This document shows positions 10,453-62,127 of a DNA stretch of 64,000 bases, piece after piece. Position 1 is the first letter of the stretch. Every line of letters begins with the position of its first letter. Location: positions 36,441 to 100,440 of the forward strand of contig CAKOPG010000001.1 of NCBI GenBank assembly GCA_934098745.1, written 5' to 3'. The notes under the pieces were generated by a model. The model had not been told where the DNA came from. It searched no databases and saw only the letters and a program-made list of their open reading frames with translations. The translations under genes were made by a program, and so were the position numbers. Origin of the DNA: an uncultured Bacilli bacterium. GTDB lineage: Bacteria > Bacillota_I > Bacilli_A > RF39 > UBA660.

Positions 10453-10816
10453 TAGAGGACAGAGTTTAGTTTTATTTGTATTAGTCATACCAATAATATT
10501 ACTCATATTAGTAATGGTTGTAGATATAGGAAAGATGGTTTTGAAAAAGACAGAGATGGATAATATTAATAAACTTGCTATTTCGTATGGGCTTGATAAG
10601 ATAGATAGTGATCCATATAAAATTATTAATGATATTATAAGTAAGAATAATAGTGATATAAATATTAAAAAGATAGATATTAAAGATGAAAAAATAGAAG
10701 TAAAGTTAGAAGAAGAAGTTAAATTTATTTTGTTTAAGAATAGTAATTTGGTTAAAATTAATTCAAATTATATTGGATATATAGATAATAATAAAAAAGT
10801 TATCGAAAGAAATTAG
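10445..10816 (+). CDS. TadE/TadG-like pilus assembly protein, second copy
   Basis: N-terminal MNNRGQSLVLFVLVIPIILLIL is similar to TadE leaders but has Leu where the +5 Glu is expected. Confidence 0.55.
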   Translation: MNNRGQSLVLFVLVIPIILLILVMVVDIGKMVLKKTEMDNINKLAISYGLDKIDSDPYKIINDIISKNNSDINIKKIDIKDEKIEVKLEEEVKFILFKNSNLVKINSNYIGYIDNNKKVIERN

Positions 10817-10825
10817 GTGAAAGTT

Positions 10826-11599
10826 ATGAATGAAAAGGGTAAGATAGTGACAATTTCATCAGTTAAGGGTGGGGTTGGTAAGACGACATTAGTACTTAAT
10901 TTAGCTGGATTATATTTTCTTATGAAGAAGAAAGTTTTAATAATTGATTTAGATTTGTATGCAGGGGGAGTAGCTACTTGTTTAAATATTAATAATAAGA
11001 GAGATATATATATGCTTGTAGATGCTCTTAGTAATAATAAGTCTGTATCTTTAAGTGATTACGTAACGGCTTATAATAGTGGTATTAGTGTCTTAGCAAA
11101 TCCAAAAGATCCACGTGATGTTTCAAAAATGGAAAGTAAATACTTAATGCAGATATTTGATTTAGCTAAAAGTGAATACGATGTGGTGTTGGTAGATACT
11201 TCACATTCACTTGATGAAACTTGTTTAGTAGCATTGGATGCTTCAAATTGTAGTGCTTTTGTGATTACTAATGATTTAGTAGATTTAAAGAATATGAAGA
11301 GTTTAGTTAGTATTTTTAAGGAAATGGATAAAGAGAATTATAAGATAGTTTTAAATAATTCTAGAGATACTGGAAGAGATTATATAAGTTTGTTTGATAT
11401 TAGAAATATGATTAAGAGAAATGTTGATTATACGATATCTAGAAATTTTTATATAAAGAATATAGATAAATATGTTTTAAATGGAGAAATATTAACGCTT
11501 AATAAATTTATTACAAGGTTTAATGGGGCAGATATTGCTAATATGAATAAATTGGCTCTTTCCTTGATCAATTATAGTGAGGAGGGAGAAAATGAGTAG
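10826..11599 (+). CDS. CpaE/TadZ-like ParA/MinD-family ATPase
   Basis: Deviant Walker A SSVKGGVGKTT. RBS AGGTGA. The ORF-track start at 10817 is an upstream GTG. Confidence 0.7.
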   Translation: MNEKGKIVTISSVKGGVGKTTLVLNLAGLYFLMKKKVLIIDLDLYAGGVATCLNINNKRDIYMLVDALSNNKSVSLSDYVTAYNSGISVLANPKDPRDVSKMESKYLMQIFDLAKSEYDVVLVDTSHSLDETCLVALDASNCSAFVITNDLVDLKNMKSLVSIFKEMDKENYKIVLNNSRDTGRDYISLFDIRNMIKRNVDYTISRNFYIKNIDKYVLNGEILTLNKFITRFNGADIANMNKLALSLINYSEEGENE

Positions 11600-12920
11600 T
11601 AATGGAACATTATTAAGAGAGTTTAATGTTAAGAAAAAGGAAAAAGAAGTAGTTGATGTTAAAGATTATGAAGTATTTTCGGATAAAGAAAAACTAGATG
11701 AACTTAGAACTAAGATTGTACAGAATTTAATCAATAATAAGATACCACAAAATGTTTCTTTGGAACAATATATTAACGATGAGATAGATGAAGTATTACA
11801 AGATTATGAACTTGGTTCGATGGAACGTAATCATATATGTAATTTAATTCAGAATGAAATAAATGGTTATGGACCGTTGACAGATTTACTTAATAATGAT
11901 ACGGTTACTGAAATAATGGTTAATGGAACAAATGAGATATATGTTGAAGTAGATGGTAAGCTTGTTAAAGATGAGTCAGTATCTTTTATTAATGATGAAC
12001 ATATAATTAGAACTGTTCAACGAATAGTTCAACCTTTAGGAAGAACGATAGATGCAGTTAATCCAATGGTAGATGCAAGACTTAGAGATGGTTCAAGACT
12101 TAATGCGATTATTCCACCATTATCTTTAAAGGGACCAGTAGTAACTATAAGAAAATTTTCAAAGCAGATGAATAGTATTGATGATTTGCTTCGTATGGGA
12201 ACAATGACGGCCCATATGGCCCAGTTTTTACAAGCCTGTGTTAGAGCAAAATTAAATATAATTATATCTGGAGGTACTGGTAGTGGTAAGACAACGTTGT
12301 TAAATATTTTGAGTGGTTTTATTGATGATGAGGAAAGAATTATTACTATTGAAGATGCGGCAGAATTAAAACTTCATCAATCACATGTTATTTCTCTTGA
12401 AACTAGAATGGTTAATTATGAGGGTGAAGGAGAAATTACAATTAGAGATTTAGTTAGAAACTCTTTAAGAATGAGACCTGATAGAATAATTGTTGGAGAA
12501 GTAAGAGGAAAAGAATCTTTTGATATGTTACAGGCTATGAATACTGGACATGAAGGTTCTATTACAACATTACATGCTAATAGTCCAGAAGATGCGATTA
12601 ATAGACTTGAGACGATGATGCTGATGAATGATATGGAACTGCCAGTTAGTGCTATAAGAAATTATATAGAAAAGGCTATTAATATAGTTATTCAGATAGA
12701 AAGACTTAGTGATGGTAAAAGAAAGATTACTTCGATTGAAGAAGTAGTAGGCTTTAAGGATGATAAAGTTTCTTTAAAAGAAATATTCTCATTTAAAGAA
12801 ACGGGAGTTAGTAATCAGGGAAATGTTATTGGAGAATTTGTGGTTTATAAACGTGTACCAAAGGTATATGATAAAATTAAAAGAAAAGGAATTGTTTTAG
12901 ATAATATATTTGGTGAATAA
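11592..12920 (+). CDS. cpaF: CpaF/TadA secretion ATPase (VirB11/GspE superfamily)
   Basis: Walker A ISGGTGSGKTTLLN; Walker B IIVGEVRG; His box TLHANS. RBS GAGGAGGGAG. Overlaps the upstream gene by 8 nt. Confidence 0.85.
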   Translation: MSSNGTLLREFNVKKKEKEVVDVKDYEVFSDKEKLDELRTKIVQNLINNKIPQNVSLEQYINDEIDEVLQDYELGSMERNHICNLIQNEINGYGPLTDLLNNDTVTEIMVNGTNEIYVEVDGKLVKDESVSFINDEHIIRTVQRIVQPLGRTIDAVNPMVDARLRDGSRLNAIIPPLSLKGPVVTIRKFSKQMNSIDDLLRMGTMTAHMAQFLQACVRAKLNIIISGGTGSGKTTLLNILSGFIDDEERIITIEDAAELKLHQSHVISLETRMVNYEGEGEITIRDLVRNSLRMRPDRIIVGEVRGKESFDMLQAMNTGHEGSITTLHANSPEDAINRLETMMLMNDMELPVSAIRNYIEKAINIVIQIERLSDGKRKITSIEEVVGFKDDKVSLKEIFSFKETGVSNQGNVIGEFVVYKRVPKVYDKIKRKGIVLDNIFGE

Positions 12921-48923: not shown

Positions 48924-49139
48924 CAAGTTTTTCTATTTAAAAAATATGGCTACATTATTAAGTGAGGGATATAATATAGTTAGTAATGTTGTAGTAGTAA
49001 TTAGTCCGATAAATAAATATTCAAATGATAACTGTGGTTGTGATGTCCCTTATTGGAGAATTTAGTATTTGACAATTTATAAAAAGAATGATATTATTTA
49101 GTAAATGTAGGGAATAGGAGAAGTAGCAATAATAAAATA

Positions 49140-49368
49140 ATACAGTGAGTTAGAAGTAGTGAGAACTAATAAAATTGATTATTGTGAATAACACCTAGGA
49201 GCAGGTTAGCTGAAATAAGGAGTAAGTTAATTCGGAAGACAAACCGTTATCAGATTGTTAGGCTTGATGGAGCTAAAAGAGTGATTATAATGAAAGTTAT
49301 AATAATGTAGGTGGTACCGCGGATACACAGTGTTCGTCCTATTTGGGATGAATACTGTTTTTTCATAT
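49140..49368 (+). promoter_or_regulatory. T-box leader (candidate Asp specifier GAC) with intrinsic terminator, upstream of aspS
   Basis: TTGACA-17-TATTAT promoter at 49069-49097. Candidate specifier ggaaGACAaa. T-box sequence aatgtaggtggtaccgcgg at 49305-49323. Terminator acagtgttc...gaatactgt plus T6. Confidence 0.7.
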
Positions 49369-49405
49369 TAAAGTATTTATCCTTAGAAAGAAAGGAGTAT
49401 AAAAT

Positions 49406-51139
49406 ATGAAGACAATTTATAGGGACCACTTATGTGGTATGATTAGTGAAAAAGAAATAGGAAGAGAGATTAGAATTTCGGGATTTGTCAGTAATATTAG
49501 AGATCATGGAGGAATATTGTTTCTAGATATTAGAGATGAATCGGGGGTTATGCAAGTAGTTAGTATGGATGATAAGATACTTATGGATATTAATAAGGAG
49601 AGCAGTGTAACAGTAACGGGGATAATAAGAGAAAGAGATATAGATGATTATAATGATAAAATAAGTACAGGAAGAATAGAATTACTTATATCTAAAATAG
49701 AATGTTTAAATAAGGTAAGAAAAACTTTACCTTTTGAAATAATTACTTCTCATGAATTATCAACTGATATTAGATTTAAGTATCGTTATTTAGATTTAAG
49801 AAACAAAAAAATTCATGATTTAATAGTAAATAGAACAAAGGTAATTAAGTATTTAAGAGATATGATGAGTAGAGATGATTTTTTAGAAATAACAACGCCA
49901 ATAATTACTTCTAGTTCTCCCGAAGGCGCAAGAGATTTTATAATTCCATCAAGAAAATTTTATGGGAAATTTTATGCTTTGCCACAAGCACCGCAAGTAT
50001 TTAAACAGTTATTAATGGCTTCAGGGTTTGAAAAATATTTTCAAATAGCGCCTTGTTTTAGAGATGAAGATGCAAGGGTAGATAGGTTATATGGGGAATT
50101 TTATCAATTAGATTTAGAGATGGCTTATGTTACTGAAGAAGATGTTTTAAAGGTTGGTAAAAAGATATTTCGTAATATTTTTAAAAAGTTTGTAGGTTGG
50201 AAGAAAATAGAATTTCCAGAAATTACTTATAGAGAAAGTATTAGTAAATATGGGACGGATAAACCTGATTTGAGAATTCCATATATTATTCAAGATGTAA
50301 GTAAGGTATTTGATACGACAACTTTTAAACCTTTTAGAGGAGTAGAAGTAAAGGCTATTGTTGTCCCTTCTATATATAATAAAAGTAATAGTTGGTATAA
50401 TGAACTTCAAGAGTATGCTAAGAGTATTGGTTTACCGGGTATAGGTTATTTTAAGGTAATGGATGATATGTCTTTTAATGGACCAATAGATAAATTTTTA
50501 ACAGATAAAGAGAGAAAAGACTTAATAGAGATAGCTGGTCTTAAGAAGAAGGATGTAATATTTTTTATTGCAGATAAAGATAAGGCTTTAAAATATGCTT
50601 CTTTAGTTAGAATAGAGTTAGGAAGAAAAATGGGATATTTGGATACTAAGGAATATAAATTTTGTATTGTAAAGAATTTTCCAATGTATGAATATGATAT
50701 TGAGACTGATAAATATAAATTTTGTCATAACCCTTTTTCAATGCCTAAATGTAGGATTGATGATATGACTATGGAGAATATTGATAAGATAGAAGCATAT
50801 CAATATGACTTTGTATGTAATGGAATAGAGATGGCTAGTGGGGCAGTTAGATGTCATAAGATAGAGATGATGAAGAAAGTATTTTCTTTGATTGGATATG
50901 GAGAAGATAAAATACGCGATAAGTTTGGGGCTTTGTATGAGGCATTTTGTTATGGAACACCACCACATGCTGGAATGGCTATCGGAATTGAGAGAATGTT
51001 AATGCTTATAAATGATACGAGTAGTATTAGAGAAGTCGTGGCATTTCCACTTAATGCATCGGGAATTGATATGATGATGCAGACACCAGATACTATAACG
51101 GAAGAACAACTTAGAGAAACACATATAAAAATAAGATAA
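49406..51139 (+). CDS. aspS: Aspartate--tRNA ligase, bacterial type, probably non-discriminating
   Basis: Class II motifs FRDED, QLDLEMAY, GIERM; GAD insertion; immediately upstream of gatCAB. Confidence 0.9.
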   Translation: MKTIYRDHLCGMISEKEIGREIRISGFVSNIRDHGGILFLDIRDESGVMQVVSMDDKILMDINKESSVTVTGIIRERDIDDYNDKISTGRIELLISKIECLNKVRKTLPFEIITSHELSTDIRFKYRYLDLRNKKIHDLIVNRTKVIKYLRDMMSRDDFLEITTPIITSSSPEGARDFIIPSRKFYGKFYALPQAPQVFKQLLMASGFEKYFQIAPCFRDEDARVDRLYGEFYQLDLEMAYVTEEDVLKVGKKIFRNIFKKFVGWKKIEFPEITYRESISKYGTDKPDLRIPYIIQDVSKVFDTTTFKPFRGVEVKAIVVPSIYNKSNSWYNELQEYAKSIGLPGIGYFKVMDDMSFNGPIDKFLTDKERKDLIEIAGLKKKDVIFFIADKDKALKYASLVRIELGRKMGYLDTKEYKFCIVKNFPMYEYDIETDKYKFCHNPFSMPKCRIDDMTMENIDKIEAYQYDFVCNGIEMASGAVRCHKIEMMKKVFSLIGYGEDKIRDKFGALYEAFCYGTPPHAGMAIGIERMLMLINDTSSIREVVAFPLNASGIDMMMQTPDTITEEQLRETHIKIR

Positions 51140-51199
51140 AAGTATTAAATAATTGGTAGAAATATGTTATACTAAAGTGTATATGAAAGAGGGATAATT

Positions 51200-51487
51200 A
51201 TGGATAAAGAAACTTTAAAGATGTTAGCTTCAAAACTTATGTTTACGATGAATGAAGAGGAATATGATACTTTATCAGAGGAATTTAAGGTTATTTTAAA
51301 GCAAATGGATTTAATAGGAAAAATTAAAGATATTAAGGATGTTTCACCAATGATATATCCATTTGAATTAGAGGGAGTTACATTAAGAGAAGATGTAGTT
51401 ATAGATGAATTACCAATAGAGGAGATATTACTTAATAGTGGTAGTAATTTATATAATCAAGTAAAGTTACCAAAGGTAGTAGAATAA
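51200..51487 (+). CDS. gatC: Asp/Glu-tRNA amidotransferase subunit C
   Basis: 95-aa GatC-like sequence in the conserved operon position. Confidence 0.85.
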   Translation: MDKETLKMLASKLMFTMNEEEYDTLSEEFKVILKQMDLIGKIKDIKDVSPMIYPFELEGVTLREDVVIDELPIEEILLNSGSNLYNQVKLPKVVE

Positions 51488-51509
51488 CTAGTATAAGTGG
51501 GTGATAGGA

Positions 51510-52940
51510 ATGAAGAATATAAGTGAATTAAGACGTGAATTAGATAATGGAGAGATTACTAAGGAGAAGTTATTTGAAGAGAGTACTAAAGCAGCTATAG
51601 ATACACAAGAGGAATATAATTGTTTTGTAACTATTATGGATAAATATGATGAGGTAGATAGTAATAGTATGATAAGTGGTATTCCATATGCTTTAAAAGA
51701 TAATATATCTACGAAAGGAATTTTAACAACAGCTTCTTCAAATATTTTGGCTAATTATGTACCGGTATATGATGCTACTATATATAAGAAATTAAAAGAA
51801 AGTGGAGCTTTATTAGTAGGAAAGACAGTATTAGATGAATTAGCAATGGGAGGAACAGGAACAACGGGACATACGGGAATTGTTCGTAATCCTTGGGATA
51901 AAGATAGATTAATAGGAGGTTCTTCAGCTGGTTCGGCAGCGGCTGTTGCGATGGGAATAGTACCGTTTGCGATTGGATCTGATACAGGAGATTCTATTAG
52001 AAAACCGGCGGCATATGGTGGAGTAGTAGGATTTAAGCCAACATATGGAAAAATATCTAGATATGGTTTATTTGCCTTTGCTTCTAGTTTAGATCATTTG
52101 GGAGTATTCTCTAGATGTGTAAGAGACGTTGCTATAGTTACAGATATAGTAAAGGGACATGATAGTCATGATATGACAAGTTTACCTGATGATAATAAGA
52201 ATTATGTTAGGGAATTAGATAATGATGTTAGAGGAAGAAAATTATTTTATATCAAAGAAGCTTTAGAAAATAAAGATAATGATAAAGATTTAGAAAAGGT
52301 ATTAGGTAATTTTTATGAGACAGTTAAGAAGTGTGAAGATTTAGGAATAGAGGTTTCAGGAGAATCTATTGATAAAGAATTGTTATTAGCATTGTATCCA
52401 ACATATATGTCAATATCATGTGCTGAGGTTACTTCAAATGATGCTAATTTAACAGGAATTCATTTTGGAGTAAGAGGAGAAGGAAATACTCCGGATGAGA
52501 TTATTAGAGATGCTAGAACTAAGGGATTTAGTGAATTAATTAAAAGAAGATTTGTTTTAGGTAGTTATATTTTACAAAGAGAGAATCAAGAAAAATTATT
52601 TTTAAATGCATGTCGTGTTAGAAGAATGGTTGTTGAGAGAGTTAATGAATTATTTACTAAGTATGATGGAATTATTATGCCGGCAGCTGCTAGTATAGCA
52701 CCAAGATTTGATAATAATAGTGGGGATAAATTAAGTGATAAGTATTTAATACTAGATAATCATTTAGTTATTGGCAATTTTGGAGGATTTCCAAGTATTA
52801 CAATACCGTCAGGATTAGTTGATAAGATGCCGGTGGCGATAAATATTACTGGTAGAGTTAATGAAGATGATGTCGTATTAAATATGGCTAATAAGATAGA
52901 AGAAGTATTGGAATTTGATAAGTTAAGGGAGATGAAATAA
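51510..52940 (+). CDS. gatA: Asp/Glu-tRNA amidotransferase subunit A
   Basis: Amidase signature GGSSAGSAAAVA...GSDTGDSIRKPA. The ORF-track start at 51501 is a GTG. Confidence 0.9.
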   Translation: MKNISELRRELDNGEITKEKLFEESTKAAIDTQEEYNCFVTIMDKYDEVDSNSMISGIPYALKDNISTKGILTTASSNILANYVPVYDATIYKKLKESGALLVGKTVLDELAMGGTGTTGHTGIVRNPWDKDRLIGGSSAGSAAAVAMGIVPFAIGSDTGDSIRKPAAYGGVVGFKPTYGKISRYGLFAFASSLDHLGVFSRCVRDVAIVTDIVKGHDSHDMTSLPDDNKNYVRELDNDVRGRKLFYIKEALENKDNDKDLEKVLGNFYETVKKCEDLGIEVSGESIDKELLLALYPTYMSISCAEVTSNDANLTGIHFGVRGEGNTPDEIIRDARTKGFSELIKRRFVLGSYILQRENQEKLFLNACRVRRMVVERVNELFTKYDGIIMPAAASIAPRFDNNSGDKLSDKYLILDNHLVIGNFGGFPSITIPSGLVDKMPVAINITGRVNEDDVVLNMANKIEEVLEFDKLREMK

Positions 52941-54364
52941 TGTATAAGACAGTTATTGGGTTAGAAGTTCATTGTGAGCTTAAATCAAAAAGTAAGAATT
53001 TTTCATCTAGTAGAAATAGTTATTCGCAAATTCCAAATAGTAATGTTTCAGTAGTAGATTTGGGAATGCCAGGAATATTACCGGTAGTTAATAAAGAAGC
53101 TGTTAAGAATTCTATTAAGATGGCTTTGGCATTTAACTGTGATATACCAGAATATTTAACTTTTGAAAGAAAGAATTATTTTTATCCAGATTTACCTAAG
53201 GGATATCAGATTACGCAGTTTAAGCATCCAATTGGAATAAATGGATATGTAATGATAAATGTCGATGGTAAAGATAAAAAAGTTTTAATTCATGATACGC
53301 ACTTAGAAGAAGATACAGCTAGTTTAGATCATTATAATGCATATTCTTTAATCGATTATAATAGATGTGGAGTCCCATTACTAGAAACCGTTACAGAACC
53401 TTGTTTGAATTCAGCTGATGAGGCCGTAGCTTTTCTTGAAGGACTTAGAAGTATATTTTTGTACTGTGAAACATCAGATGCTAGAAGTGATAGAGGACAG
53501 ATAAGGTGTGATGTTAATGTTTCTTTGATGAAAGAAGATGATAAGGAACTTGGTACAAAGGTAGAAATGAAGAATATAAACTCTTTTAGTAGTGTTAGAG
53601 AAGCTATTATTTGTGAGGTAGCAAGACAGACAGAAATACTAGAAAGTGGTGGGAAGGTTTTACAAGAAACGAGAAGATTTGATGAAAATCTTGGTAAAAC
53701 TTTTACAATGAGAAGTAAGGAAGATGCGATTGATTATAGATATTTTACGGATCCTAATTTACCTCCTATTAAGATAGATAAGGAATGGATTGAAGAGATA
53801 AGGAAAACTATTCCTAAACTACATAATGAAAGATTTAAAACTTATACAGAAGAGTATGCTATTAATTCTAAGGATGCTAATACTATTGTTAAGGATAAAG
53901 ATATATCAGATTATTATGAAGAGTGTTTAAGATTGGGAGCAGATCCAATAATTACTTCTAATTGGTTAACAGGTGACTTGATGGGTAATTTGAATAAACA
54001 AAGTATGACAATTAAGGAGACTTCTTTTAAGCCAGAAATGTTGGTATCTTTGATTAAGATGATTAATGAGGGTAAGATATCTGGTAAGCAAGGTAAATTA
54101 GTTTTAGAAAAATCAATTGAAGATGGTAAAACACCGGATAGTGTCGTTTCAGAACTTGGTCTTAGTCAAATAGGAGATGAGGAAACGATTAGAAATATTG
54201 TACTTGAAGTAATTCAAGAAAATGCTAATTTGGTGGAAGATTATAAGAATGGAAAAAGAGTATTTGATTATTTTATAGGACAAATAATGAAAAAAAGTCG
54301 TGGAAGAGCAAACCCGGTTATAACATCTAAAGTATTAAAAGAAGAGTTAGATAAAAGGTTATAA
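52940..54364 (+). CDS. gatB: Asp/Glu-tRNA amidotransferase subunit B
   Basis: MYKTVIGLEVHCEL hallmark N-terminus. Confidence 0.92.
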   Translation: MYKTVIGLEVHCELKSKSKNFSSSRNSYSQIPNSNVSVVDLGMPGILPVVNKEAVKNSIKMALAFNCDIPEYLTFERKNYFYPDLPKGYQITQFKHPIGINGYVMINVDGKDKKVLIHDTHLEEDTASLDHYNAYSLIDYNRCGVPLLETVTEPCLNSADEAVAFLEGLRSIFLYCETSDARSDRGQIRCDVNVSLMKEDDKELGTKVEMKNINSFSSVREAIICEVARQTEILESGGKVLQETRRFDENLGKTFTMRSKEDAIDYRYFTDPNLPPIKIDKEWIEEIRKTIPKLHNERFKTYTEEYAINSKDANTIVKDKDISDYYEECLRLGADPIITSNWLTGDLMGNLNKQSMTIKETSFKPEMLVSLIKMINEGKISGKQGKLVLEKSIEDGKTPDSVVSELGLSQIGDEETIRNIVLEVIQENANLVEDYKNGKRVFDYFIGQIMKKSRGRANPVITSKVLKEELDKRL

Positions 54365-54369
54365 AATTA

Positions 54370-54416
54370 AAAGTATATAGATTATATTTTTTAGATAATT
54401 TATATACTTTTTCTTT
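54370..54416 (+). terminator. Rho-independent terminator after gatB
   Basis: Perfect 10-bp stem aaagtatata/tatatacttt followed by a T-rich tail. Confidence 0.55.
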
Positions 54417-54434
54417 AAGATTATGAATATATGT

Positions 54435-54463
54435 TTGACAGAAAGAATAATATTTGATATAAT
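54435..54463 (+). promoter_or_regulatory. Consensus sigma-A promoter
   Basis: TTGACA at 54435-54440; exactly 17 nt spacer; TATAAT at 54458-54463. Confidence 0.6.
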
Positions 54464-54469
54464 CTATAT

Positions 54470-55030
54470 CAATTGATGGCACATTATTCTAGTCAATTGA
54501 TTCGTTAGGAAGACGGGAGTAAAAAACCGTTAAAGAGCATATCTATGAAACCTTTGGTGTTTGCTTTGGATGCCCAATCTAGGGTGGATGCTGAAGATGA
54601 GAATACTGGATAGAATGTAATGGCATATATTTGATTCCATTATTCGTGGAGACCTATCTTTGTAATGTTGATTATTACGAACTAGGATTAAACCTGCTAT
54701 GTGGTGTTAAGCTATGAGCAGTGTAGCTTGTCTTGAGTGAAGGCTTTGGGATTAGTTTAGGAATTATTGTAACTGGCCAATTACGTAATGCCCGTACTAT
54801 GAAATTACTTTTGCAAAAGAGAACTAATAACGATGCGTTGGTGAGGAAATCTCCTAGAGTGTACTATGATATGGGATTGCAGTGGGAACTAAGTGGCAAT
54901 CAAGTCGTATGATGTGGAAACACCATGCTGTCTTCTTTAAAGGGGAACCGCAATACTGGTAACGGTATGTAGAAGATAGGGAAATCCAACTTGACCTAAG
55001 TCTCAAAGTTAACTATATCTATAAGCCATT
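54470..55030 (+). ncRNA. Candidate large structured non-coding RNA (approximately 560 nt), possibly OLE-like
   Basis: No ORF of 60 aa or more on either strand across about 670 bp. GC is visibly elevated against the flanks. Driven by a perfect promoter. Followed in the same orientation by a small 4-TM protein. Not RNase P, tmRNA or T-box by their hallmark motifs. Confidence 0.4.
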
Positions 55031-55048
55031 ATTTTTTTGGAGGAAAAA

Positions 55049-55570
55049 ATGAAGAGTAATTATAAATGGAGCTTAATAGTAACATTAATGGCATTTACAA
55101 TATCTTTAATAATGTCATTGATATCTTCTTTAATTCTTAAGAATGTTACTTTATTAATAGCTATATTAGTTACTTTTCTTTTTATTATAATAGGAATAGT
55201 TTTTGATATAGTAGGGGTAGCGGTTACTAGTGGTGATATTACTAAATTTCATTCAATGAGTGCAAGAAAAGTAAAAGGAAGTAAAATTGGAGTTAAATTA
55301 ATGAAAAATTCTTCTAAGGTATCGTCAGTTTGTTGTGATGTTATTGGAGATATATGTGGTATTATTTCGGGTAGTGCAGGAGTAACAATTGTAGCTTTAA
55401 TAATTAAATTAACTTCTGCAAATCAGCTGGTTGTTTCTTTATTAGTTACTTCTTTGATATCGGCTTTAACTATTGGTGGTAAGGCTCTTGGTAAGAATTT
55501 AGCAATAAATAAGAGTACAGAGGTTGTAACTTTTGTATGTAAGATATTAGCTATATTTAGTAAGAATTAG
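55049..55570 (+). CDS. Small polytopic membrane protein with a duplicated Asp-Gly motif (OapA-like candidate)
   Basis: Four hydrophobic segments. FDIVGVAVTSGD and CDVIGDICGIISGSAG each sit at the start of a helix pair. RBS GGAGG 5 nt upstream of ATG 55049. The ORF-track start at 55037 is a TTG. Confidence 0.5.
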   Translation: MKSNYKWSLIVTLMAFTISLIMSLISSLILKNVTLLIAILVTFLFIIIGIVFDIVGVAVTSGDITKFHSMSARKVKGSKIGVKLMKNSSKVSSVCCDVIGDICGIISGSAGVTIVALIIKLTSANQLVVSLLVTSLISALTIGGKALGKNLAINKSTEVVTFVCKILAIFSKN

Positions 55571-55659
55571 AATAAGTAATTATTCTTTTTTAATTGTAAA
55601 AAAATGTTTGTAAAATAAAAAGTTATATGATAAAATATTATCATAAAGAGGTAGTGAGT

Positions 55660-57228
55660 ATGGATAGTAATAATCAAAATAATAATAATAATAATCAAAA
55701 TACTGTTAATAACAGTCCTTTTGGTAATCAAGAAAATAATTTTAATAATCTAAATACTTCGGGAATGGCTTTTAATAATGTTGATATGACTAATCAGAGT
55801 ATTAATCAAATTAATAATGATATGATTAATCAAAACATTAATCAAGTTAACAGTGAGATGAGTAGTCAAAATATTAATCAAAGTAATAACGGTATAGTTA
55901 ATCAACAAGTTAGTAATAGTATGACTAATCAGAGTATTAATCAAGTTATGAATAATTCAATGGCTTCTTCACAAGTAATGGGAAGTCAGCCGGTAAATAA
56001 TAATGGACAGACTGTAAATGTACAATCAATATATGCTAATCAGTTAAAAAATGATGGTCAGGATTTTTCAGAACCTAAAAAATCTAAAGCTGGTATGATT
56101 GTAGGAATAGTATTAGGAATTTTAATTATTCTTTTAGGATGTGGCTATTATTTTATTATAGATAGTCCTAAGACAATATTTAGTAGTTTTGTAAATAAGA
56201 CATTTTCTGAAAGTAAAATAGGAAAAAATGATGCGAATAAGGTATTTTCTACATATGAAATGAAATATAATATAGATGTTTCAGCAGGAGAATATAAAGA
56301 TTATCAAGAGATATTTAATATTATTAATAAATTTACTTTTAAGGCTAGTGTAGGAATTGACAAAGATAAGGATATATTATCATTAGGATTTAAGGCAGTA
56401 TATGGAGATGATGAAGTAATTAATGTAGATGCAATGACAAATACTAATTCTTCAGAAACAGTGTATTTTGATTTGCATGACTTATATGACAAAAAGATAA
56501 AGATGTCTTTAAATGATGATACGGGAAGTTCTAATAATGGAGAAGATACCGATATAGATACGATCGTTGAATCTTTAAAGAAAGCTTTAACGGAAACAAT
56601 GGATACAGCTGATTATTCAAAAGAAATTGTTAAATTAGATGGAAAGAATGTTAAAAAGATAACATTACATATTAATAATACATTTGTAAATACACTTGGT
56701 ACAAAGTTATTAAATGATAGTAATTTTATGAGTGATGTTTCTAATATAAGTGGTAAGAGTGAAGATGATATTAGAAGTATTATTAATGATTATATGGAAA
56801 TGGATTATAAAGAGGATATATCATTATATTTATCTTTATTTGGAAATGACTTTATAAGGTTAGTAATTGGTGATGATAGTGATAATATAACTATATGGAT
56901 AGATGGTAATAAGTATATGTATGAGTATGCTTCTAATTATACACTTACATATAAGGGTTATGTTATGATAGATAAAGAAAATTCTATTCTTGGTATTAAT
57001 ATAGAACTAGTATCTGAAGGAATTACTATAGGAATAACAGAAAAAATAACTACTAGTTATGATAAAGATATTCCACAGATAGATACATCTAACAGTATTG
57101 ATTATACAGAATTAACAGAAGAAGATATGAGTAAGATAATTGATAATTTACTTGAAAAGAAAGCTATTAATAATTTGATTGCTGATATGGGATTAGATCA
57201 ATTATTTGATTTTCAGAGTGATATTTAG
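55660..57228 (+). CDS. Membrane-anchored protein with an N/Q-rich cytoplasmic N-terminus and a large extracytoplasmic domain
   Basis: About 130 aa N/Q-rich with xNQ(x)INQ repeats; TM GMIVGIVLGILIILLGCGYYFII; RBS GAGGTAGTGAGT before ATG 55660. Confidence 0.5.
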   Translation: MDSNNQNNNNNNQNTVNNSPFGNQENNFNNLNTSGMAFNNVDMTNQSINQINNDMINQNINQVNSEMSSQNINQSNNGIVNQQVSNSMTNQSINQVMNNSMASSQVMGSQPVNNNGQTVNVQSIYANQLKNDGQDFSEPKKSKAGMIVGIVLGILIILLGCGYYFIIDSPKTIFSSFVNKTFSESKIGKNDANKVFSTYEMKYNIDVSAGEYKDYQEIFNIINKFTFKASVGIDKDKDILSLGFKAVYGDDEVINVDAMTNTNSSETVYFDLHDLYDKKIKMSLNDDTGSSNNGEDTDIDTIVESLKKALTETMDTADYSKEIVKLDGKNVKKITLHINNTFVNTLGTKLLNDSNFMSDVSNISGKSEDDIRSIINDYMEMDYKEDISLYLSLFGNDFIRLVIGDDSDNITIWIDGNKYMYEYASNYTLTYKGYVMIDKENSILGINIELVSEGITIGITEKITTSYDKDIPQIDTSNSIDYTELTEEDMSKIIDNLLEKKAINNLIADMGLDQLFDFQSDI

Positions 57229-57306
57229 ATAATAAATAAGCTAATAATTATTTTATAATAGTTATTAGTTTTATTTTGTGGTATTATATTTATAGGATGT
57301 GATATT

Positions 57307-59871
57307 ATGAAGAAGGTAATACTGGTAGATGGTAATAATTTAATGTTTAGAAGTTATTATGCAACGTTATATTCTGGTAGTGTGATGACTAATAAAGAAG
57401 GATTTCCTACAAATGCTTTATTTGGATTTGTCAATATGATGAATAAAATTATTCATGAAGAAAATCCAGAATATATTATGGTAGCTTTTGATATAGGAAG
57501 AACATTTAGACATGATAAGTATGATTACTATAAAGGAAAAAGAGATGAAACGCCAGAAGATTTAAAGAAACAGTTTCCAGTAGCTAAGAAGATTCTTAAT
57601 GCTATGGGAATTAAATATTTTGAGTTAGAGGGATATGAAGCTGATGATATTATTGGAACATTTGCTAAGAAAATAGATCTTGATGAAGATTATATAGGTA
57701 CGATTATCAGTAGTGATAAAGATTTATTACAGTTAATATCAGCCGATGTATCGGTTAAGTTATTGAAACAAAAAGATTATATAAGAATGGATGAGAATAC
57801 TTTTAGAGAACATTATGGAATGTTAGATCCAATAAAGATGATAGATCTTAAATCTTTAATGGGTGATGCTTCAGATAATATACCGGGAGTTAAGGGTATT
57901 GGAGAAAAGACGGCTTTAAAATTATTACAGGAATATGGTTCATTAGATGGAGTATATGAAAATATTGATAAGATAAAAGGAGCTACTAAAGAGAAGTTAA
58001 TTATAGATAAAGAGAATGCTTATATGTCTTATGATATAGCTACAATATATAGGGATGTACCAATAGATACATCTTTTGAGAATATTAAATATAAGGAAGA
58101 AGAAACTGATGAACTTATTAATATATATAATGATTTAGATTTTTATTCTTTTTTAAGAAAGAGTAATCATGAGGTAAGTAAGAAAGAACTATCTTATAAA
58201 GAGGTTAGTAATGTAGATGAGATTAAGATAGATGGTGATGTAGCTATTAGTTTAGAACTTGATAATGATAATTATCATCATGCTAATATTAGAGGAATTA
58301 GTATATATAATAAAGATATAGCAATATATATTAAGGGGATTAATTTAAGAAATACAGATTTTTTGAAAGATGTATGTATATATACATATGATTATAAGAA
58401 ATTATATTCAGTATTTAAGAGAAATAATTTATATATTCCAGAATGTAGTTTTGATACGATGTTAGCGGGATATTTACTCAATTATTCAGTTAAGGATGAT
58501 ATTGCTTATTTAGCTAATGCAATGAAGAGGGAAATACCTTTTTATGATAAGAAGATGGATGTAGATAGTCAGGAATATAAAGATATAAGTATTAGAAGAG
58601 CAGAATTTATATATGATAGTTATAATGAATTATTAGATAGATTGAAAGAAAATGATCAGGTAGATTTATTTTATAAGATAGAATTACCTTTATCTGTAGT
58701 ACTTGCTAAGATGGAATTAAAGGGAATAAGGGTAGATAAAGAGATACTTATTGATATGAAGGAAGATATAGTAAGAAGAATAGATGAGGTAAGTAAAGAT
58801 ATTTATAATTTAGCAGGAAAAGTTTTTAATATAGCTAGTCCTAAACAACTTGGAGAGGTATTGTTTGATGAACTTAATTTACCTCATGGTAAGAAGAATA
58901 AGACTGGATATGTAACTGATGCGAATACTTTAGGCAAATTAATCGATTATGAAATAGTAAGAAAAATTTTAGAATATCGTCTTTTAAATAAGTTGTATAC
59001 TACTTATATTGAAGGGATACTTAAAGCTATTTCTCCGGATGGGTTAATTCATACGATATATACTCAGACTATTACTAGAACAGGAAGGTTATCTTCAATA
59101 GAACCTAATTTACAAAATATTCCGGTTAGAAATGAGTTTGGAAAATTAATTAGAAAGGCTTTTGTACCATTTGATAATGCTTTAATTATGTCTTCGGATT
59201 ATTCACAAATAGAGTTAAGGGTATTTGCCCATTTATCTAATGTTAGTGAGTTATTATATGCTTTTAATAATAATATGGATATTCATACGAAGACAGCAAT
59301 GGATATATTTAAAGTACCAATGGATAAGGTAACTAAGAATATGCGTAGACAAGCTAAGGCAGTTAACTTTGGTATTCTTTATGGTATTAGTCCTTATGGG
59401 TTAGCTGAAGATATTGGAATATCTCCCAAGGAGGCTAAGAAATTTATTGAGACTTATTTTGAGACTTATCCAGGTATTAAGGATTACATGAATAAGGTAA
59501 TTGAAGAAGCACATCAAAAAGGCTATGTTAAAACTATTATGAATAGAGTTAGAACGATTGATGAATTAAATAGTTCTAATTATATGCAAAGAAGTATGGG
59601 AGAAAGAATGGCTTTAAATACTCCGGTACAGGGAAGTAGTGCAGATATTCTTAAGAAAGCTATGGTAGAAATTGATGAAGAATTTACTAAAAAGAATATT
59701 AAGAGTGAGATGTTACTTCAAGTACATGATGAATTAATTTTTAATGTTTATAAAGATGAACAAGAAGAAGTTAAGAATATTGTTAAAAATATTATGGAGA
59801 ATACGGTTAAGTTAAATGTGCCATTACTTGTAGATATAGAGTTTGGTGATAACTGGTATGATGCTAAATAG
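57307..59871 (+). CDS. polA: DNA polymerase I
   Basis: 5' nuclease N-terminus (VILVDGNNLMFRSYYA). Polymerase motifs A (DYSQIELR), B (RRQAKAVNFGILYG) and C (LQVHDEL). Confidence 0.92.
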   Translation: MKKVILVDGNNLMFRSYYATLYSGSVMTNKEGFPTNALFGFVNMMNKIIHEENPEYIMVAFDIGRTFRHDKYDYYKGKRDETPEDLKKQFPVAKKILNAMGIKYFELEGYEADDIIGTFAKKIDLDEDYIGTIISSDKDLLQLISADVSVKLLKQKDYIRMDENTFREHYGMLDPIKMIDLKSLMGDASDNIPGVKGIGEKTALKLLQEYGSLDGVYENIDKIKGATKEKLIIDKENAYMSYDIATIYRDVPIDTSFENIKYKEEETDELINIYNDLDFYSFLRKSNHEVSKKELSYKEVSNVDEIKIDGDVAISLELDNDNYHHANIRGISIYNKDIAIYIKGINLRNTDFLKDVCIYTYDYKKLYSVFKRNNLYIPECSFDTMLAGYLLNYSVKDDIAYLANAMKREIPFYDKKMDVDSQEYKDISIRRAEFIYDSYNELLDRLKENDQVDLFYKIELPLSVVLAKMELKGIRVDKEILIDMKEDIVRRIDEVSKDIYNLAGKVFNIASPKQLGEVLFDELNLPHGKKNKTGYVTDANTLGKLIDYEIVRKILEYRLLNKLYTTYIEGILKAISPDGLIHTIYTQTITRTGRLSSIEPNLQNIPVRNEFGKLIRKAFVPFDNALIMSSDYSQIELRVFAHLSNVSELLYAFNNNMDIHTKTAMDIFKVPMDKVTKNMRRQAKAVNFGILYGISPYGLAEDIGISPKEAKKFIETYFETYPGIKDYMNKVIEEAHQKGYVKTIMNRVRTIDELNSSNYMQRSMGERMALNTPVQGSSADILKKAMVEIDEEFTKKNIKSEMLLQVHDELIFNVYKDEQEEVKNIVKNIMENTVKLNVPLLVDIEFGDNWYDAK

Positions 59872-59886
59872 AAGGAAGGGATAAGA

Positions 59887-60702
59887 ATGCCAGAACTACC
59901 AGAGGTTGAAACGGTAAAAAATGGTTTAAAGGAAAAAGTAAGGGGAAGAAAAATATTATCTTGTAATGTTTTATGGCCGGGTATTATAGCATATCCAGAT
60001 AAAGATACTTTTATGAAGGAAATAGCTAATCAAACTATTTTAGATTTATCTCGTAGAGGAAAATTTATAATCTTTCATTTAGATAATTATGCACTTATTT
60101 CACATTTAAGAATGGAAGGAAAGTACTTTATTAAGAAAGAAAATACTAAATTAACAAAACATGATCATGTGGTATTTAATTTAGATAATCAGGAGAATCT
60201 TATATATAATGATACGCGTAAATTTGGTAAAATGTATTTATTAAAGAGTAAAGATGATATTCATAGTCCGTTAAATAAATTAGGTAAAGAACCATGGGAT
60301 AAGGATTTAACGGTAGCTTATCTAAAAGAAAAATTAAAGAAGAAGAAAGCTATTAAGACACTTCTTTTAGATCAAGAGATAATTACTGGTATTGGCAATA
60401 TATATGCTGATGAAATATTATTTTTAGCCGGTATTAATCCGGAAGAATATGGAGTTAATCTAACTGATAAGAAGTTAGCGGATATTATTAAATATACTAA
60501 GGAAATATTAGAAAAATCTATTTCTTTAGGAGGAACTACTATTCATTCTTATGCTGCTGTCGATGGAGTAAGTGGACGTTTTCAACAAGAGTTATTAGTT
60601 CATGGTAAGGCGGGAGAACTTTGTCCTAATTGTAAGAATAAGATAATTAAAATAACGGTAAATGGCCGGGGTACATATTATTGTCCACATTGTCAGAAAT
60701 AG
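59887..60702 (+). CDS. mutM: Formamidopyrimidine-DNA glycosylase
   Basis: MPELPEVETV N-terminus; C-terminal zinc finger CPNC...CPHC. Confidence 0.9.
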   Translation: MPELPEVETVKNGLKEKVRGRKILSCNVLWPGIIAYPDKDTFMKEIANQTILDLSRRGKFIIFHLDNYALISHLRMEGKYFIKKENTKLTKHDHVVFNLDNQENLIYNDTRKFGKMYLLKSKDDIHSPLNKLGKEPWDKDLTVAYLKEKLKKKKAIKTLLLDQEIITGIGNIYADEILFLAGINPEEYGVNLTDKKLADIIKYTKEILEKSISLGGTTIHSYAAVDGVSGRFQQELLVHGKAGELCPNCKNKIIKITVNGRGTYYCPHCQK

Positions 60703-60722
60703 ATAGATAGTGGAGGTATTAT

Positions 60723-61268
60723 ATGAAATATATTGCATTATTAAGAGGAATAAATATTAGTGGTAAGAATAAAATAGCGATGTCAGAACTAAAAAGACTT
60801 TTCGAAGAAAATAATTATCAAAATGTATCTACTTATCTCAATAGTGGTAATGTTATCTTTGAAAGTAATATAGATAATAAAGAAGATATTATGAATAATA
60901 TTTATAAACTTATAGAGATTAATTTTTCGCTTAAAATACCAGTATATATCATGACGGATAAAGAATTAGAAAATATTTTAAATAATAGTCCAGAATGGTG
61001 GGGTAATAAGAATAAAGATATATATGATAATTTAATATTTATAATTCCTCCGACTAAATATGAAGAAGTATATAATACGGTGGGGTTACCAAAAGAAGAT
61101 ATTGAGAAAATTAAAGAATATAATAATACTATATTTTGGTCATTTGATTTAAATAATTATCGAAAATCTAATTGGTGGATTAAAACAGCTAGTACTGATA
61201 TAAAAGATAAGATTACGATAAGGACTGCTAATACGATGAAGAAAATATTAGAAATATGTCAGAAATAG
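60723..61268 (+). CDS. DUF1697-family protein
   Basis: MKYIALLRGINISGKNKIAMSELKRLFEE hallmark N-terminus. Confidence 0.6.
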   Translation: MKYIALLRGINISGKNKIAMSELKRLFEENNYQNVSTYLNSGNVIFESNIDNKEDIMNNIYKLIEINFSLKIPVYIMTDKELENILNNSPEWWGNKNKDIYDNLIFIIPPTKYEEVYNTVGLPKEDIEKIKEYNNTIFWSFDLNNYRKSNWWIKTASTDIKDKITIRTANTMKKILEICQK

Positions 61269-61398
61269 ATTATAAGATTAGTTAAGAAGAGTATCACTTT
61301 TATTAGTGATGCTTTTTAAATATTATATAAGTCTCTTTCTTAAAATAGTAAAGTTATGATATAATATTTATATATATAAACAGATAAAAGGTGTAAAT

Positions 61399-62127
61399 AT
61401 GGATTATAGTATTAAGATAAATGAATTTGAGGGACCATTAGATTTACTTTTACATTTAATAAAACAGTCTAATATAAATATTCAAGATATTGATATAGCA
61501 GTGATAACAAAACAATATTTAGATTATATTAATAAGATGGAAGAGTTAAATATTAATGTAGCAGCAACTTATATTGTTATGGCAGCAGAACTTATGGAAA
61601 TTAAGTCTAGATCTTTACTTCCTAAGAAGGAAGATGAAAATATAGAAAATGAAGAAGATGAAGAAATATCTAGGGAAAATCTTATTAATAAACTAGTGGA
61701 ATATCAAAAGTATAAAGATATGACAGGAAAGTTTAAAGAGTTAGAAAATGAGAGAAAGATGATATATGTTAAAGCTCCAGAGAAAGCTAATAATTATATA
61801 GATAATACAATAGTTAGAGATGATAGTGTATCTTTAGATGACTTGGTTAATGCTTTTAAGAAATTTTTAGAGAGAATTGATAGAGAGAAACCATTAACAA
61901 CGAAGATTACTTCAAAAGAGTATAGTGTTAAGGAAAGAAAACAAAATATTAGAAAGATTCTTCGAGATAAGAAGAAGGTATTATTTACAGAGTTATTTGA
62001 AGAAAAAAATATTGCTTATGTTGTAGTAACTTTTTTATCAATATTAGAGATGACTAAAGAGCATGAGGTTATGTTAAAACAAGATGGTAATTTTAAAGAT
62101 ATTTTAATAGAGTTGAAGGTGAAATAA
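61399..62127 (+). CDS. scpA: Segregation and condensation protein A
   Basis: FEGPLDLLLHLIKQSNINIQDIDIAVITKQYLDYI. Confidence 0.85.
   Translation: MDYSIKINEFEGPLDLLLHLIKQSNINIQDIDIAVITKQYLDYINKMEELNINVAATYIVMAAELMEIKSRSLLPKKEDENIENEEDEEISRENLINKLVEYQKYKDMTGKFKELENERKMIYVKAPEKANNYIDNTIVRDDSVSLDDLVNAFKKFLERIDREKPLTTKITSKEYSVKERKQNIRKILRDKKKVLFTELFEEKNIAYVVVTFLSILEMTKEHEVMLKQDGNFKDILIELKVK

What the first reader, a model, noticed from the sequence alone, without database searches (positions are those of the whole stretch)
54435..55570. GC-elevated, ORF-free approximately 570-nt transcript behind a perfect promoter, followed by a small 4-TM protein with duplicated Asp motifs: candidate OLE-like RNA with an OapA-like partner
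Between gatB and the next gene there are about 670 bp with no ORF of 60 aa or more on either strand, in a genome that is otherwise densely coding. The stretch starts right after a terminator. It has a textbook TTGACA-17-TATAAT promoter at 54435-54463. Its GC content is visibly higher than the surrounding DNA, which is typical of structured RNAs in AT-rich genomes. Examples of the GC-rich stretches are ggaagacgggag, ggatgcccaatctagggtggatgc and ggggaaccgcaatactggtaacgg. Immediately downstream and co-oriented is a 173-aa, 4-TM protein. It carries an internally duplicated [FC]-D-[IV]-[IV]-G-x4-5-[ST]-G motif at the start of each helix pair. A roughly 600-nt ornate RNA encoded just upstream of a small membrane protein with conserved aspartates is the arrangement I recall for OLE RNA and OapA in anaerobic and extremophilic Firmicutes. 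Hallmarks of RNase P RNA (GGAAAGUCC), tmRNA (tRNA-like 3' end) and T-box (GGUGGUACCGCG) are absent. Alternatives are a different large ncRNA class (ROOL, GOLLD, raiA-like) or an unusually long structured 5' UTR.
Basis: partly seen in the sequence, partly recalled or inferred. Interest (0 to 1): 0.7.

Follow-up and report, generated by a model that had tools for sequence, protein, structure and literature searches.

The report
OLE RNA with its OapA partner

Summary
The observation and the interpretation both hold. Rfam's OLE model (RF01071) matches window 54460-55044 (+) over its full length at 359 bits (threshold 50, E 6e-102). No other large-RNA family matches there.

The 173-aa protein (55049-55570) has the features published for OapA:
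- four long hydrophobic helices and a basic loop between TM2 and TM3;
- an invariant DxxxD motif (D97-D101) and no proline;
- a sub-threshold CNNM Pfam hit;

All 25 other loci I scanned that encode a homologue carry an Rfam OLE upstream on the same strand. In an alignment of 22 OLEs, 96 of 156 predicted pairs show compensatory changes, and the window forms 149 of those pairs.

Local details:
- a consensus extended -10 promoter sits about 10 nt before helix P1;
- P7 is short and one small hairpin is missing;
- no stem-loop terminator separates OLE from oapA, and about 16 nt lie between P1 and the start codon.

The host is an uncultured, 27% GC gut Bacilli lineage. The 'internal duplication' in the protein is not supported. 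Verdict: a correct call of an already known RNP locus, of low novelty.

The parts
54369..54418 (+). A/U-rich intrinsic terminator of the aspS-gatCAB operon: 17-bp stem at 54369-54385 / 54395-54411, then a U-rich tail.
   Evidence: -13.8 kcal/mol, z = -4.5, and none of 200 shuffles folds as well. The GC-based scan missed it.
54435..54463 (+). Sigma-70 promoter of ole: -35 TTGACA at 54435-54440, 17-nt spacer ending in TGA (extended -10), -10 TATAAT at 54458-54463. The transcription start is inferred at about 54470, 2-3 nt before P1.
   Evidence: A TTGACA...TATAAT-like promoter sits at the same distance from P1 in most of the 22 related loci.
54460..55044 (+). OLE RNA gene (Rfam RF01071). The structured core, from the P1 5' strand to the P1 3' strand, is 54473-55032.
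   Evidence: 359.3 bits, E 6.1e-102, model 1-616 of 616, not truncated. 211 of 249 highly conserved consensus nucleotides are kept. 149 of 156 consensus pairs form.
54512..54531 (+). P4 hairpin with the A-rich loop (GAGUAAAAAAC). In the cryo-EM dimers this loop makes the A-A bridge.
   Evidence: The role comes from PMC12286853 and PMC12265935.
54552..54596 (+). P5/P5.1 hairpin with loop GCCCA at 54572-54576. UGCC (54571-54574) is complementary to GGCA in the P6.1 loop.
   Evidence: The loop nucleotides are invariant in 22 OLEs.
54615..54630 (+). Apical P6.1 hairpin with loop AUGGCA. GGCA at 54622-54625 is the kissing partner of the P5.1 loop.
   Evidence: GGCAT is invariant in 22 OLEs.
54654..54685 (+). 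P7, shortened to 32 nt. Six of the 22 OLEs, including the window, have 28-33 nt and the other 16 have 42-69 nt.
54692..54724 (+). P8 hairpin, intact.
   Evidence: 13 of 13 pairs form.
54731..54822 (+). P9 long arm, with the palindromic apical loop GGCC at 54775-54778 (self-kissing dimer contact).
   Evidence: The palindrome switches to GUAC or AGCU in relatives, as described in PMC12286853.
54907..54928 (+). P13 hairpin with GAAA (GNRA) tetraloop at 54917-54920 and a 2-nt bulge (A54912, U54913). This is the position of the OapB-binding site.
   Evidence: The site is defined in PMC7936274.
54950..54970 (+). P14.1 hairpin with GUAA (GNRA) tetraloop at 54959-54962.
55033..55048 (+). U-run after P1, then the ribosome-binding site GGAGGA (55039-55044). 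There is no stem-loop terminator and no room for a separate oapA promoter.
55049..55570 (+). oapA: a 173-aa membrane protein with four transmembrane helices. DxxxD motif is D97-D101 (codons 55337-55351). Basic loop spans residues 62-90.
   Evidence: OLE lies upstream of homologues in 25 of 25 loci.
55569..55591 (+). Weak A/U hairpin (7 bp, loop GUAA) followed by U6: a possible terminator of the ole-oapA unit.
   Evidence: -4.3 kcal/mol, z = -1.55, which is not significant. Inferred only.

Best explanation
Window 54435-55570 is an ole-oapA locus.

Shown or inferred from this sequence:
- A consensus extended -10 promoter drives a roughly 570-nt OLE (ornate, large, extremophilic) RNA. The RNA is followed, with no stem-loop terminator, by the gene for OapA.
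- OapA here is a small membrane protein with four transmembrane helices, distantly related to the transmembrane domain of CNNM/CorB/CorC/MpfA Mg2+ transporters.
- The sequence keeps the P4, P5.1/P6.1 and P9 loop motifs and both GNRA loops, and OapA keeps its DxxxD motif and its basic loop.
- Inference: oapA is translated from the OLE-containing transcript.

Taken from published work on other species, not tested here:
- OLE RNA folds into a two-domain structure and dimerises. The contacts are the A-rich P4 loop, the complementary P5.1 and P6.1 loops, and the palindromic P9 loop.
- OapA binds OLE and holds it at the membrane, forming a ribonucleoprotein particle.
- That particle helps cells cope with short-chain alcohols, cold, raised Mg2+ and poor carbon sources.
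- Its chemistry is still unknown in the field.
For: RNA identity:
- Full-length Rfam OLE hit at 359.3 bits against a threshold of 50; no other family matches in the region.
- 85% of the highly conserved consensus nucleotides are kept.
- RNAalifold on 22 OLEs from diverse Bacillota MAGs and isolates, run independently of the Rfam model, recovers the nested architecture. 96 of 156 pairs have compensatory changes, and the window forms 149 of the 156.
- The dimer-contact loops are present.

Protein identity:
- 5977 homologues with E <= 0.001 among the word-matched candidates and 1089 cluster representatives in the full HMMER scan.
- D53, D97, G100, D101, K145 and K149 are invariant in 74 homologues.
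- The CNNM Pfam hit is below threshold: 17 bits against 28.4. No proline is present, and the TM2-TM3 loop has 8 K/R against 1 D/E.

Linkage:
- OLE lies upstream on the same strand in 5 of 5 metagenome loci and 20 of 20 genome loci that encode a homologue.

Transcription unit:
- Perfect promoter, conserved in position across relatives.
- About 16 nt between P1 and the ATG, with no terminator found.
Against: - Nothing in the data contradicts the identification.
- No expression, membrane-localisation or binding data exist for this organism.
- I did not compare the protein directly with the experimentally studied H. halodurans OapA sequence.
- P7 is shortened and the small hairpin at Rfam model positions 424-433 is absent.
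- The P13 bulge is 2 nt, whereas the H. halodurans OapB site needs a single-nucleotide bulge.
- No OapB-like or OapC (YbxF/L7Ae)-like ORF is evident among the small ORFs of the 64-kb window by eye; they were not profile-searched, and the rest of the genome was not available.
- The biochemical function of OLE is unresolved in the literature, so the mechanism is a description of the particle, not of its chemistry.
Confidence: 0.96

Rival explanations
1. The structured stretch is only a cis-acting 5' leader that regulates oapA, like a riboswitch, and is not a stable RNA that works as part of a particle.
For: In the window and its closest relatives no terminator lies between the RNA and oapA. The ribosome-binding site starts about 6 nt after the P1 3' strand, so the RNA is physically the 5' leader of the oapA mRNA.
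Against: The RNA is a full-length member of the OLE family. In other lineages with the same RNA and protein, a stem-loop terminator follows OLE, and at least one locus (L020) has a separate promoter in front of oapA. Published work shows OLE is an abundant, stable, membrane-localised RNP component (PMC12265935, PMC11332333). No known riboswitch is 570 nt long with about 25 helices.
Confidence: 0.03
2. It is a decaying, non-functional remnant of OLE in a reduced genome.
For: P7 is shortened, one small hairpin is lost, and the score (359 bits) is lower than for Clostridium-type OLEs (up to 557 bits). PMC11332333 mentions rare defective ole genes.
Against: 149 of 156 consensus pairs form and 85% of the conserved nucleotides are kept. 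The promoter is a perfect consensus. oapA is intact with all its invariant residues. Same-species contigs from other samples differ by only 1-2 SNPs in OLE. The defective cases described in the literature lack oapA.
Confidence: 0.02
3. It is a different large non-coding RNA class (ROOL, GOLLD, raiA), or a protein-coding gene hidden by sequencing errors.
For: None was found.
Against: The Rfam scan of the whole window against 4227 families reports only OLE in this stretch. An independent assembly is base-for-base identical and two more have the same length. The largest ORF is 59 aa with a TTG start. Substitutions in relatives follow base-pairing, not codon structure.
Confidence: 0.005

Closest known systems
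OLE RNA (Rfam RF01071), for example from Halalkalibacterium halodurans and Clostridium acetobutylicum
   Same: - Full-length match to the covariance model.
- Same nested architecture (P1-P15).
- Same conserved loops: A-rich L4, GCCCA/AUGGCA kissing loops, GGCC palindrome in P9, two GNRA loops.
- Similar size: about 570 nt here against 577 nt in C. acetobutylicum.
- oapA lies immediately downstream.
- Neighbours include translation genes (aspS, gatCAB) and DNA-repair genes (polA, fpg). The literature names translation and DNA repair among the processes that typical ole neighbours belong to.
   Different: - P7 is about 20-25 nt shorter than in most relatives.
- The small hairpin at model positions 424-433 is absent.
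- The P13 bulge is 2 nt.
- The host is an uncultured, low-GC gut commensal lineage, not an extremophile.
- The RNA has its own consensus promoter and abuts oapA with no terminator. In H. halodurans ole is part of a long polycistronic transcript.
Reduced 'variant 1' and 'variant 2' OLE RNAs of the TANB77 and RF39 gut lineages (Fernando and Breaker 2024, PMC11332333)
   Same: The host is a reduced-genome, uncultured gut bacterium, and the P7 region is trimmed.
   Different: Variant 2 lacks P7 and P8 altogether; here P8 is intact and P7 is only shortened. Variant 1 also shortens P8 and P9 and often loses the P13 tip; here P8, P9 and the P13 GNRA loop are kept. Some relatives in my set do show such losses: L009 and L010 lose the P13 tip, and L008 and L067 lose apical P9. 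The window's RNA sits between 'full-length' and 'variant 1'.
OapA (OLE-associated protein A)
   Same: - Small protein with four transmembrane helices.
- Invariant DxxxD motif and a basic loop between TM2 and TM3 (placed on the cytoplasmic side by analogy with published OapA).
- No proline.
- Weak CNNM similarity, with CorB 7M1U as the best structural match.
- Encoded directly after ole.
   Different: It was not compared directly with the H. halodurans protein. Its closest sequences, at most 88% identical, all come from metagenomes and are unnamed.
CNNM / CorB / CorC / MpfA Mg2+ transporters (Pfam PF01595 and partner domains)
   Different: It has no CBS pair and no CorC_HlyC domain. The Pfam score is below the gathering threshold. 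It has four rather than three transmembrane helices, a DxxxD motif, and lacks the conserved CNNM proline. It is therefore not a member of this family, only a distant structural relative.

Membership tests
OLE RNA (RF01071) | Scores above the curated Rfam threshold over the whole covariance model | tested here: met
   359.3 bits against a threshold of 50, E 6.1e-102, model 1-616 of 616, no truncation.
OLE RNA (RF01071) | Keeps the highly conserved nucleotides of the family | tested here: met
   211 of 249 upper-case consensus positions are identical. Many of these are invariant across 22 OLEs.
OLE RNA (RF01071) | Ornate secondary structure supported by covariation | tested here: met
   156 consensus pairs, 96 with compensatory double changes; the window forms 149 of 156; three of the misses are gaps in the shortened P7.
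OLE RNA (RF01071) | Dimer-contact loops: A-rich L4, complementary L5.1 and L6.1, palindromic L9 | tested here: met
   GAGUAAAAAAC; UGCC opposite GGCA; GGCC at 54775-54778. Dimerisation itself was not tested.
OLE RNA (RF01071) | oapA gene immediately downstream on the same strand | tested here: met
   for the window; 25 of 25 related loci.
OLE RNA (RF01071) | [quoted passage not shown] | tested here: inconclusive
   A GAAA loop is present at 54917-54920, but the bulge is 2 nt (A54912, U54913). No OapB-like ORF was evident among the window's small ORFs by eye (not profile-searched); the rest of the genome was not available.
OLE RNA (RF01071) | Abundant stable transcript localised to the membrane | not testable with these tools
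   Needs RNA-seq, Northern blots or imaging.
OapA | Small protein with four transmembrane helices | tested here: met
   helices 5-30, 35-61, 88-121 and 126-154 at pLDDT 89.9; the hydropathy segments agree.
OapA | DxxxD motif (distinctive of OapA and absent from CNNM; PMC11332333) | tested here: met
   D97-V-I-G-D101. D97, G100 and D101 are invariant in 74 homologues.
OapA | Cluster of basic residues on the cytoplasmic loop | tested here: met
   Residues 62-90 hold 8 K/R against 1 D/E. Topology was not determined.
OapA | Weak homology to the CNNM domain, best structural match CorB 7M1U, and no conserved CNNM proline | tested here: met
OapA | Sequence homology to the experimentally studied H. 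halodurans OapA | not tested
The link is indirect: homologues sit next to canonical OLEs, for example Clostridium rectalis L074 at 557 bits.
OapA | Binds OLE RNA and is needed for its membrane localisation | not testable with these tools
   Needs biochemistry.
CNNM / MpfA Mg2+ transporter | Passes the Pfam CNNM threshold and carries CBS-pair and CorC_HlyC domains | tested here: not met
   the score is below the gathering threshold. The protein is only 173 aa with no further domains.

The most novel reading that the evidence does not exclude
In this reduced-genome gut lineage, OLE may be made only as the 5' part of the oapA mRNA. It has a dedicated consensus promoter, no terminator, and about 16 nt between P1 and the start codon. 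RNP assembly could then be coupled in cis: the ribosome translating OapA, and the insertion of OapA into the membrane, would carry the same transcript's OLE domain to the membrane. Other clades have a stem-loop terminator after OLE, and at least one (L020) a separate oapA promoter. This lineage may also be a natural minimal version of the particle (short P7, one hairpin lost, possibly no OapB or OapC).
Probability: 0.3. Interest if true: 0.4.

Novelty: already known. Interest (0 to 1): 0.2.

Why it matters
OLE is one of the most intriguing bacterial RNAs without a known biochemical function. It is large, highly conserved, bound to the membrane, forms dimers, and has recently been proposed to span the lipid bilayer.

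This locus adds no new class and no new principle. Its modest value is as a compact, naturally trimmed example from a human-gut commensal with a small, AT-rich genome. It has its own strong promoter, a short P7 and a direct fusion to oapA. That helps define which parts of the RNP are dispensable, and it could be a convenient minimal construct for structural work.

For the scan itself, it shows that a reader working from sequence alone can recognise an OLE locus correctly.

Tried and rejected
- Sequence searches of the protein against PDB chains, both as a single sequence and as a 74-sequence profile, found nothing at E <= 1 and E <= 10 respectively. The CorB/CorC relationship appears only at the level of fold.
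- NCBIfam has no model for the protein.
- The first AlphaFold run, with 23 close homologues, was too poor to use (pLDDT 62). A 74-sequence diverse alignment fixed this.
- The internal-duplication idea was tested with hhalign on the two halves and rejected (4 columns, E 0.11).
- I asked whether the 522-aa protein after oapA is a conserved extra partner. It is not: homologues occur only in contigs of the same species.
- I looked through the window's small ORFs by eye for OapB or OapC and saw no candidate; in particular no L7Ae-like ORF of 55 aa or more lies between the ABC-transporter gene and rpsL. They were not profile-searched.
- Among the 21 ORFs scanned against Pfam, none had a CNNM/MpfA architecture. 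The rest of the genome could not be examined.
- The GTDB order of the host (for example RF39) could not be established. Record titles say only 'Bacilli bacterium', 'uncultured Tenericutes' or 'uncultured Mycoplasma sp.'.

Full report
**1. The observation**

gatB (52940-54364) is followed by 684 bp before the next credible start codon, the ATG at 55049, which is preceded by GGAGGA at 55039-55044. Within this gap the longest ORFs on either strand are 59, 51, 50 and 36 aa.

A perfect TTGACA-17-TATAAT promoter with a TG extended -10 lies at 54435-54463. It is the only 12-of-12 site in 54000-56000.

The GC content rises to 0.38-0.41 in 300-nt windows. The whole window is 0.27, gatB 0.31 and the downstream gene 0.27.

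The simple terminator scan found nothing.

**2. What the RNA is**

A scan of the whole window against all 4227 Rfam families at gathering thresholds gives two hits. One is OLE (RF01071) at 54460-55044 on the + strand: 359.3 bits against a threshold of 50, E 6.1e-102, model positions 1-616 of 616, not truncated. The other is a T-box at 49101-49344. ROOL, GOLLD, raiA, RNase P and tmRNA do not match.

Of the 249 upper-case (highly conserved) consensus positions, the window keeps 211, or 85%.

**3. Independent comparative test**

I collected loci that encode homologues of the downstream protein:
- five metagenome contigs;
- 80 loci from species-representative genomes, mostly MAGs labelled Bacilli, Tenericutes, Mycoplasma, Oscillospiraceae or Clostridia, plus isolates such as Clostridium rectalis and Neopoerus faecalis.

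Rfam finds OLE upstream on the same strand in 5 of 5 metagenome loci and 20 of 20 genome loci tested. Scores range from 298 to 557 bits.

I aligned 22 of these OLEs with MAFFT and folded the alignment with RNAalifold, without using the Rfam structure. This gave 156 consensus pairs, of which 96 have at least one sequence where both sides changed and pairing is kept. The window forms 149 of the 156 pairs; three of the seven misses are gaps in a shortened helix. The predicted nesting matches the published OLE architecture:
- P1 closes the molecule (54473-54480 / 55025-55032);
- two further closing helices follow;
- a 5' domain holds the P4 to P9 hairpins;
- a 3' domain holds two GNRA-capped hairpins.

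**4. Functional elements named in the literature**

The cryo-EM papers (PMC12286853) and the review PMC12265935 describe dimer contacts through three elements. The window has all three:
- the A-rich P4 loop: GAGUAAAAAAC at 54515-54525;
- base pairing between the P5.1 and P6.1 loops: UGCC at 54571-54574 opposite GGCA at 54622-54625;
- a self-complementary P9 loop: GGCC at 54775-54778.

In relatives the P9 palindrome switches to GUAC or AGCU. This is the type of covariation reported in PMC12286853.

The OapB site described in PMC7936274 is P13 with a GNRA loop and a bulge. Here it is a GAAA loop at 54917-54920 with a 2-nt rather than 1-nt bulge. The second GNRA loop (GUAA, 54959-54962) is also present.

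Differences from the consensus:
- P7 is 32 nt here. Six of the 22 OLEs, including the window, have 28-33 nt; the other 16 have 42-69 nt.
- The small hairpin at model positions 424-433 is missing.
- P8 and P9 are intact.

The RNA is therefore not the 'variant 2' form, which lacks P7 and P8, and it only partly resembles 'variant 1' of Fernando and Breaker 2024.

**5. The protein**

The 173-aa product has no Pfam or NCBIfam family of its own. It gives a sub-threshold hit to CNNM (PF01595, E 0.0044, 17.1 bits against 28.4).

It has thousands of homologues: 5977 with E <= 0.001 among the word-matched candidates and 1089 cluster representatives in the full HMMER scan. The closest are at most 88% identical, all from metagenomes and unnamed.

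In a 74-sequence alignment, D53, D97, G100, D101, S107, G108, K145 and K149 are invariant. D97-x-x-x-D101 is the DxxxD motif that PMC11332333 calls distinctive of OapA and absent from CNNM domains. The same paper notes that OapA lacks the conserved CNNM proline, and this protein has no proline at all. The loop between TM2 and TM3 (residues 62-90) holds 8 K/R against 1 D/E. This matches the basic cytoplasmic cluster described for OapA.

With the 25-of-25 linkage to OLE, the protein is OapA in every respect I could test. The one step not done is a direct alignment with the H. halodurans protein.

**6. The 'internal duplication'**

Both Asp-containing motifs are real and conserved. However, a profile-profile comparison of residues 1-86 with residues 87-173 aligns only four columns (DIVG against DICG, E 0.11). 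Motif 1 lies at the C-terminal end of TM2, not at the start of a helix pair. I do not regard the protein as an internal repeat.

**7. Transcription unit**

The -10 box ends 9 nt before P1, so transcription should start at about 54470, practically at the base of P1 (inference). A TTGACA / TATAAT-like pair occupies the same position in most of the 22 related loci, including distant Oscillospiraceae. The Rfam consensus itself begins with 'uaau'.

At the 3' end, the window and its nearest relatives (L001, L003, L006-L008) have only a U-run after P1, then the ribosome-binding site and the ATG within about 16-20 nt. There is no terminator.

Several other clades (L016, L019, L020, L021, L022, L024, L036, L052) have a clear stem-loop terminator after OLE. 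In at least one (L020) a separate promoter precedes oapA. I infer that here oapA is translated from the OLE-containing transcript. A weak A/U hairpin plus U6 at 55569-55591 may end the unit, but it is not statistically distinguishable from shuffles.

**8. Host and context**

The window from 49049 to 61570 is base-for-base identical to ENA assembly ERZ28614532 scaffold_116. Hadza gut-metagenome contigs of the same species differ by 1-2 SNPs in OLE. The nearest species-level genomes are MAGs called 'Bacilli bacterium', 'uncultured Tenericutes' and 'uncultured Mycoplasma sp.'. Window GC is 27%.

The gene order is T-box, aspS, gatC, gatA, gatB, ole, oapA, an unknown gene, polA, fpg, DUF1697, scpA, scpB. 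This fits the published remark that ole sits among genes for translation, DNA repair and other basic processes.

Among the window's small ORFs I saw no OapB- or OapC-like candidate by eye (they were not profile-searched). None of the 21 ORFs scanned against Pfam had a CNNM/MpfA architecture. The rest of the genome could not be searched.

**9. Mechanism**

Shown here: the sequence-level identity of both components, their linkage, the covariation, and the presence of the dimerisation and protein-binding motifs.

Taken from the literature, not tested here: OLE dimerises, is bound cooperatively by OapA dimers, localises to the membrane, and is needed for tolerance to ethanol, cold, raised Mg2+ and poor carbon sources in H. 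halodurans. The biochemical activity is unknown in the field. The transmembrane-RNA model is a proposal.

**10. Verdict**

The system is already known and is found directly by Rfam. The local peculiarities are small variations within the known range: a short P7, one lost hairpin, a dedicated consensus promoter, direct fusion to oapA, and a gut-commensal host. Interest is low (0.2).

Noticed in passing
window 49101-49344 (+), upstream of aspS 49406-51139 and gatCAB 51200-54364: A T-box leader (Rfam, 111.9 bits). By its position in the model alignment the specifier triplet reads AAC (49190-49192, in the context GAA-U-AAC-A), which is Asn. It would then control aspS-gatCAB, the indirect Asn-tRNA(Asn) pathway, by sensing tRNA-Asn. 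The same T-box is present in the same-species contigs L003-L005.
   Followed up: partly
window 55660-57228 (+): A 522-aa ORF directly after oapA. It has an N/Q-rich low-complexity N-terminus, one transmembrane segment and no Pfam domain. Among 85 fetched loci, homologues occur only in contigs of the same species, so it is a fast-evolving, lineage-specific membrane-anchored protein and not a conserved OLE neighbour.
   Followed up: yes
L008:2451-2996, L067:2354-2915, L009:2301-2903, L010:2303-2905: Related gut MAGs carry naturally trimmed OLEs. L008 and L067 lack the apical part of P9, including the palindromic dimer loop. L009 and L010 lack the GNRA tip of P13, which is the OapB site. These natural deletions show which elements are dispensable.
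   Followed up: partly
L011, L012, L019, L020, L022, L024 (P9 apical loops): The self-complementary P9 loop tetranucleotide switches between GGCC, GUAC and AGCU while staying palindromic. This is consistent with the intermolecular kissing contact seen by cryo-EM. The passages I read of the Kretsch et al. paper mention GGCC, GAUC and AGCU but not GUAC.
   Followed up: partly
L019:2630-3000 and L024:1232-3000: In two MAGs a small ORF lies just upstream of oapA. It encodes a single-pass membrane protein of about 75-85 aa with an acidic, N-rich N-terminus followed by one transmembrane helix. In L019 it lies between ole and oapA. In L024 a further, larger gene is also inserted. I did not test whether these small proteins are related to each other or to the OLE particle.
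   Followed up: no
window 10111-12920 (+): Two small proteins with TadE-like hydrophobic N-termini, followed by a T2SSE-family secretion ATPase. This looks like a Tad-type pilus cluster in a small-genome gut bacterium.
   Followed up: no
window 49049-61570: This stretch is base-for-base identical to ENA metagenome assembly ERZ28614532 scaffold_116 (153 kb). Hadza gut contigs of the same species differ in OLE only at 54667 (G>A) and 54859 (G>A).
   Followed up: yes
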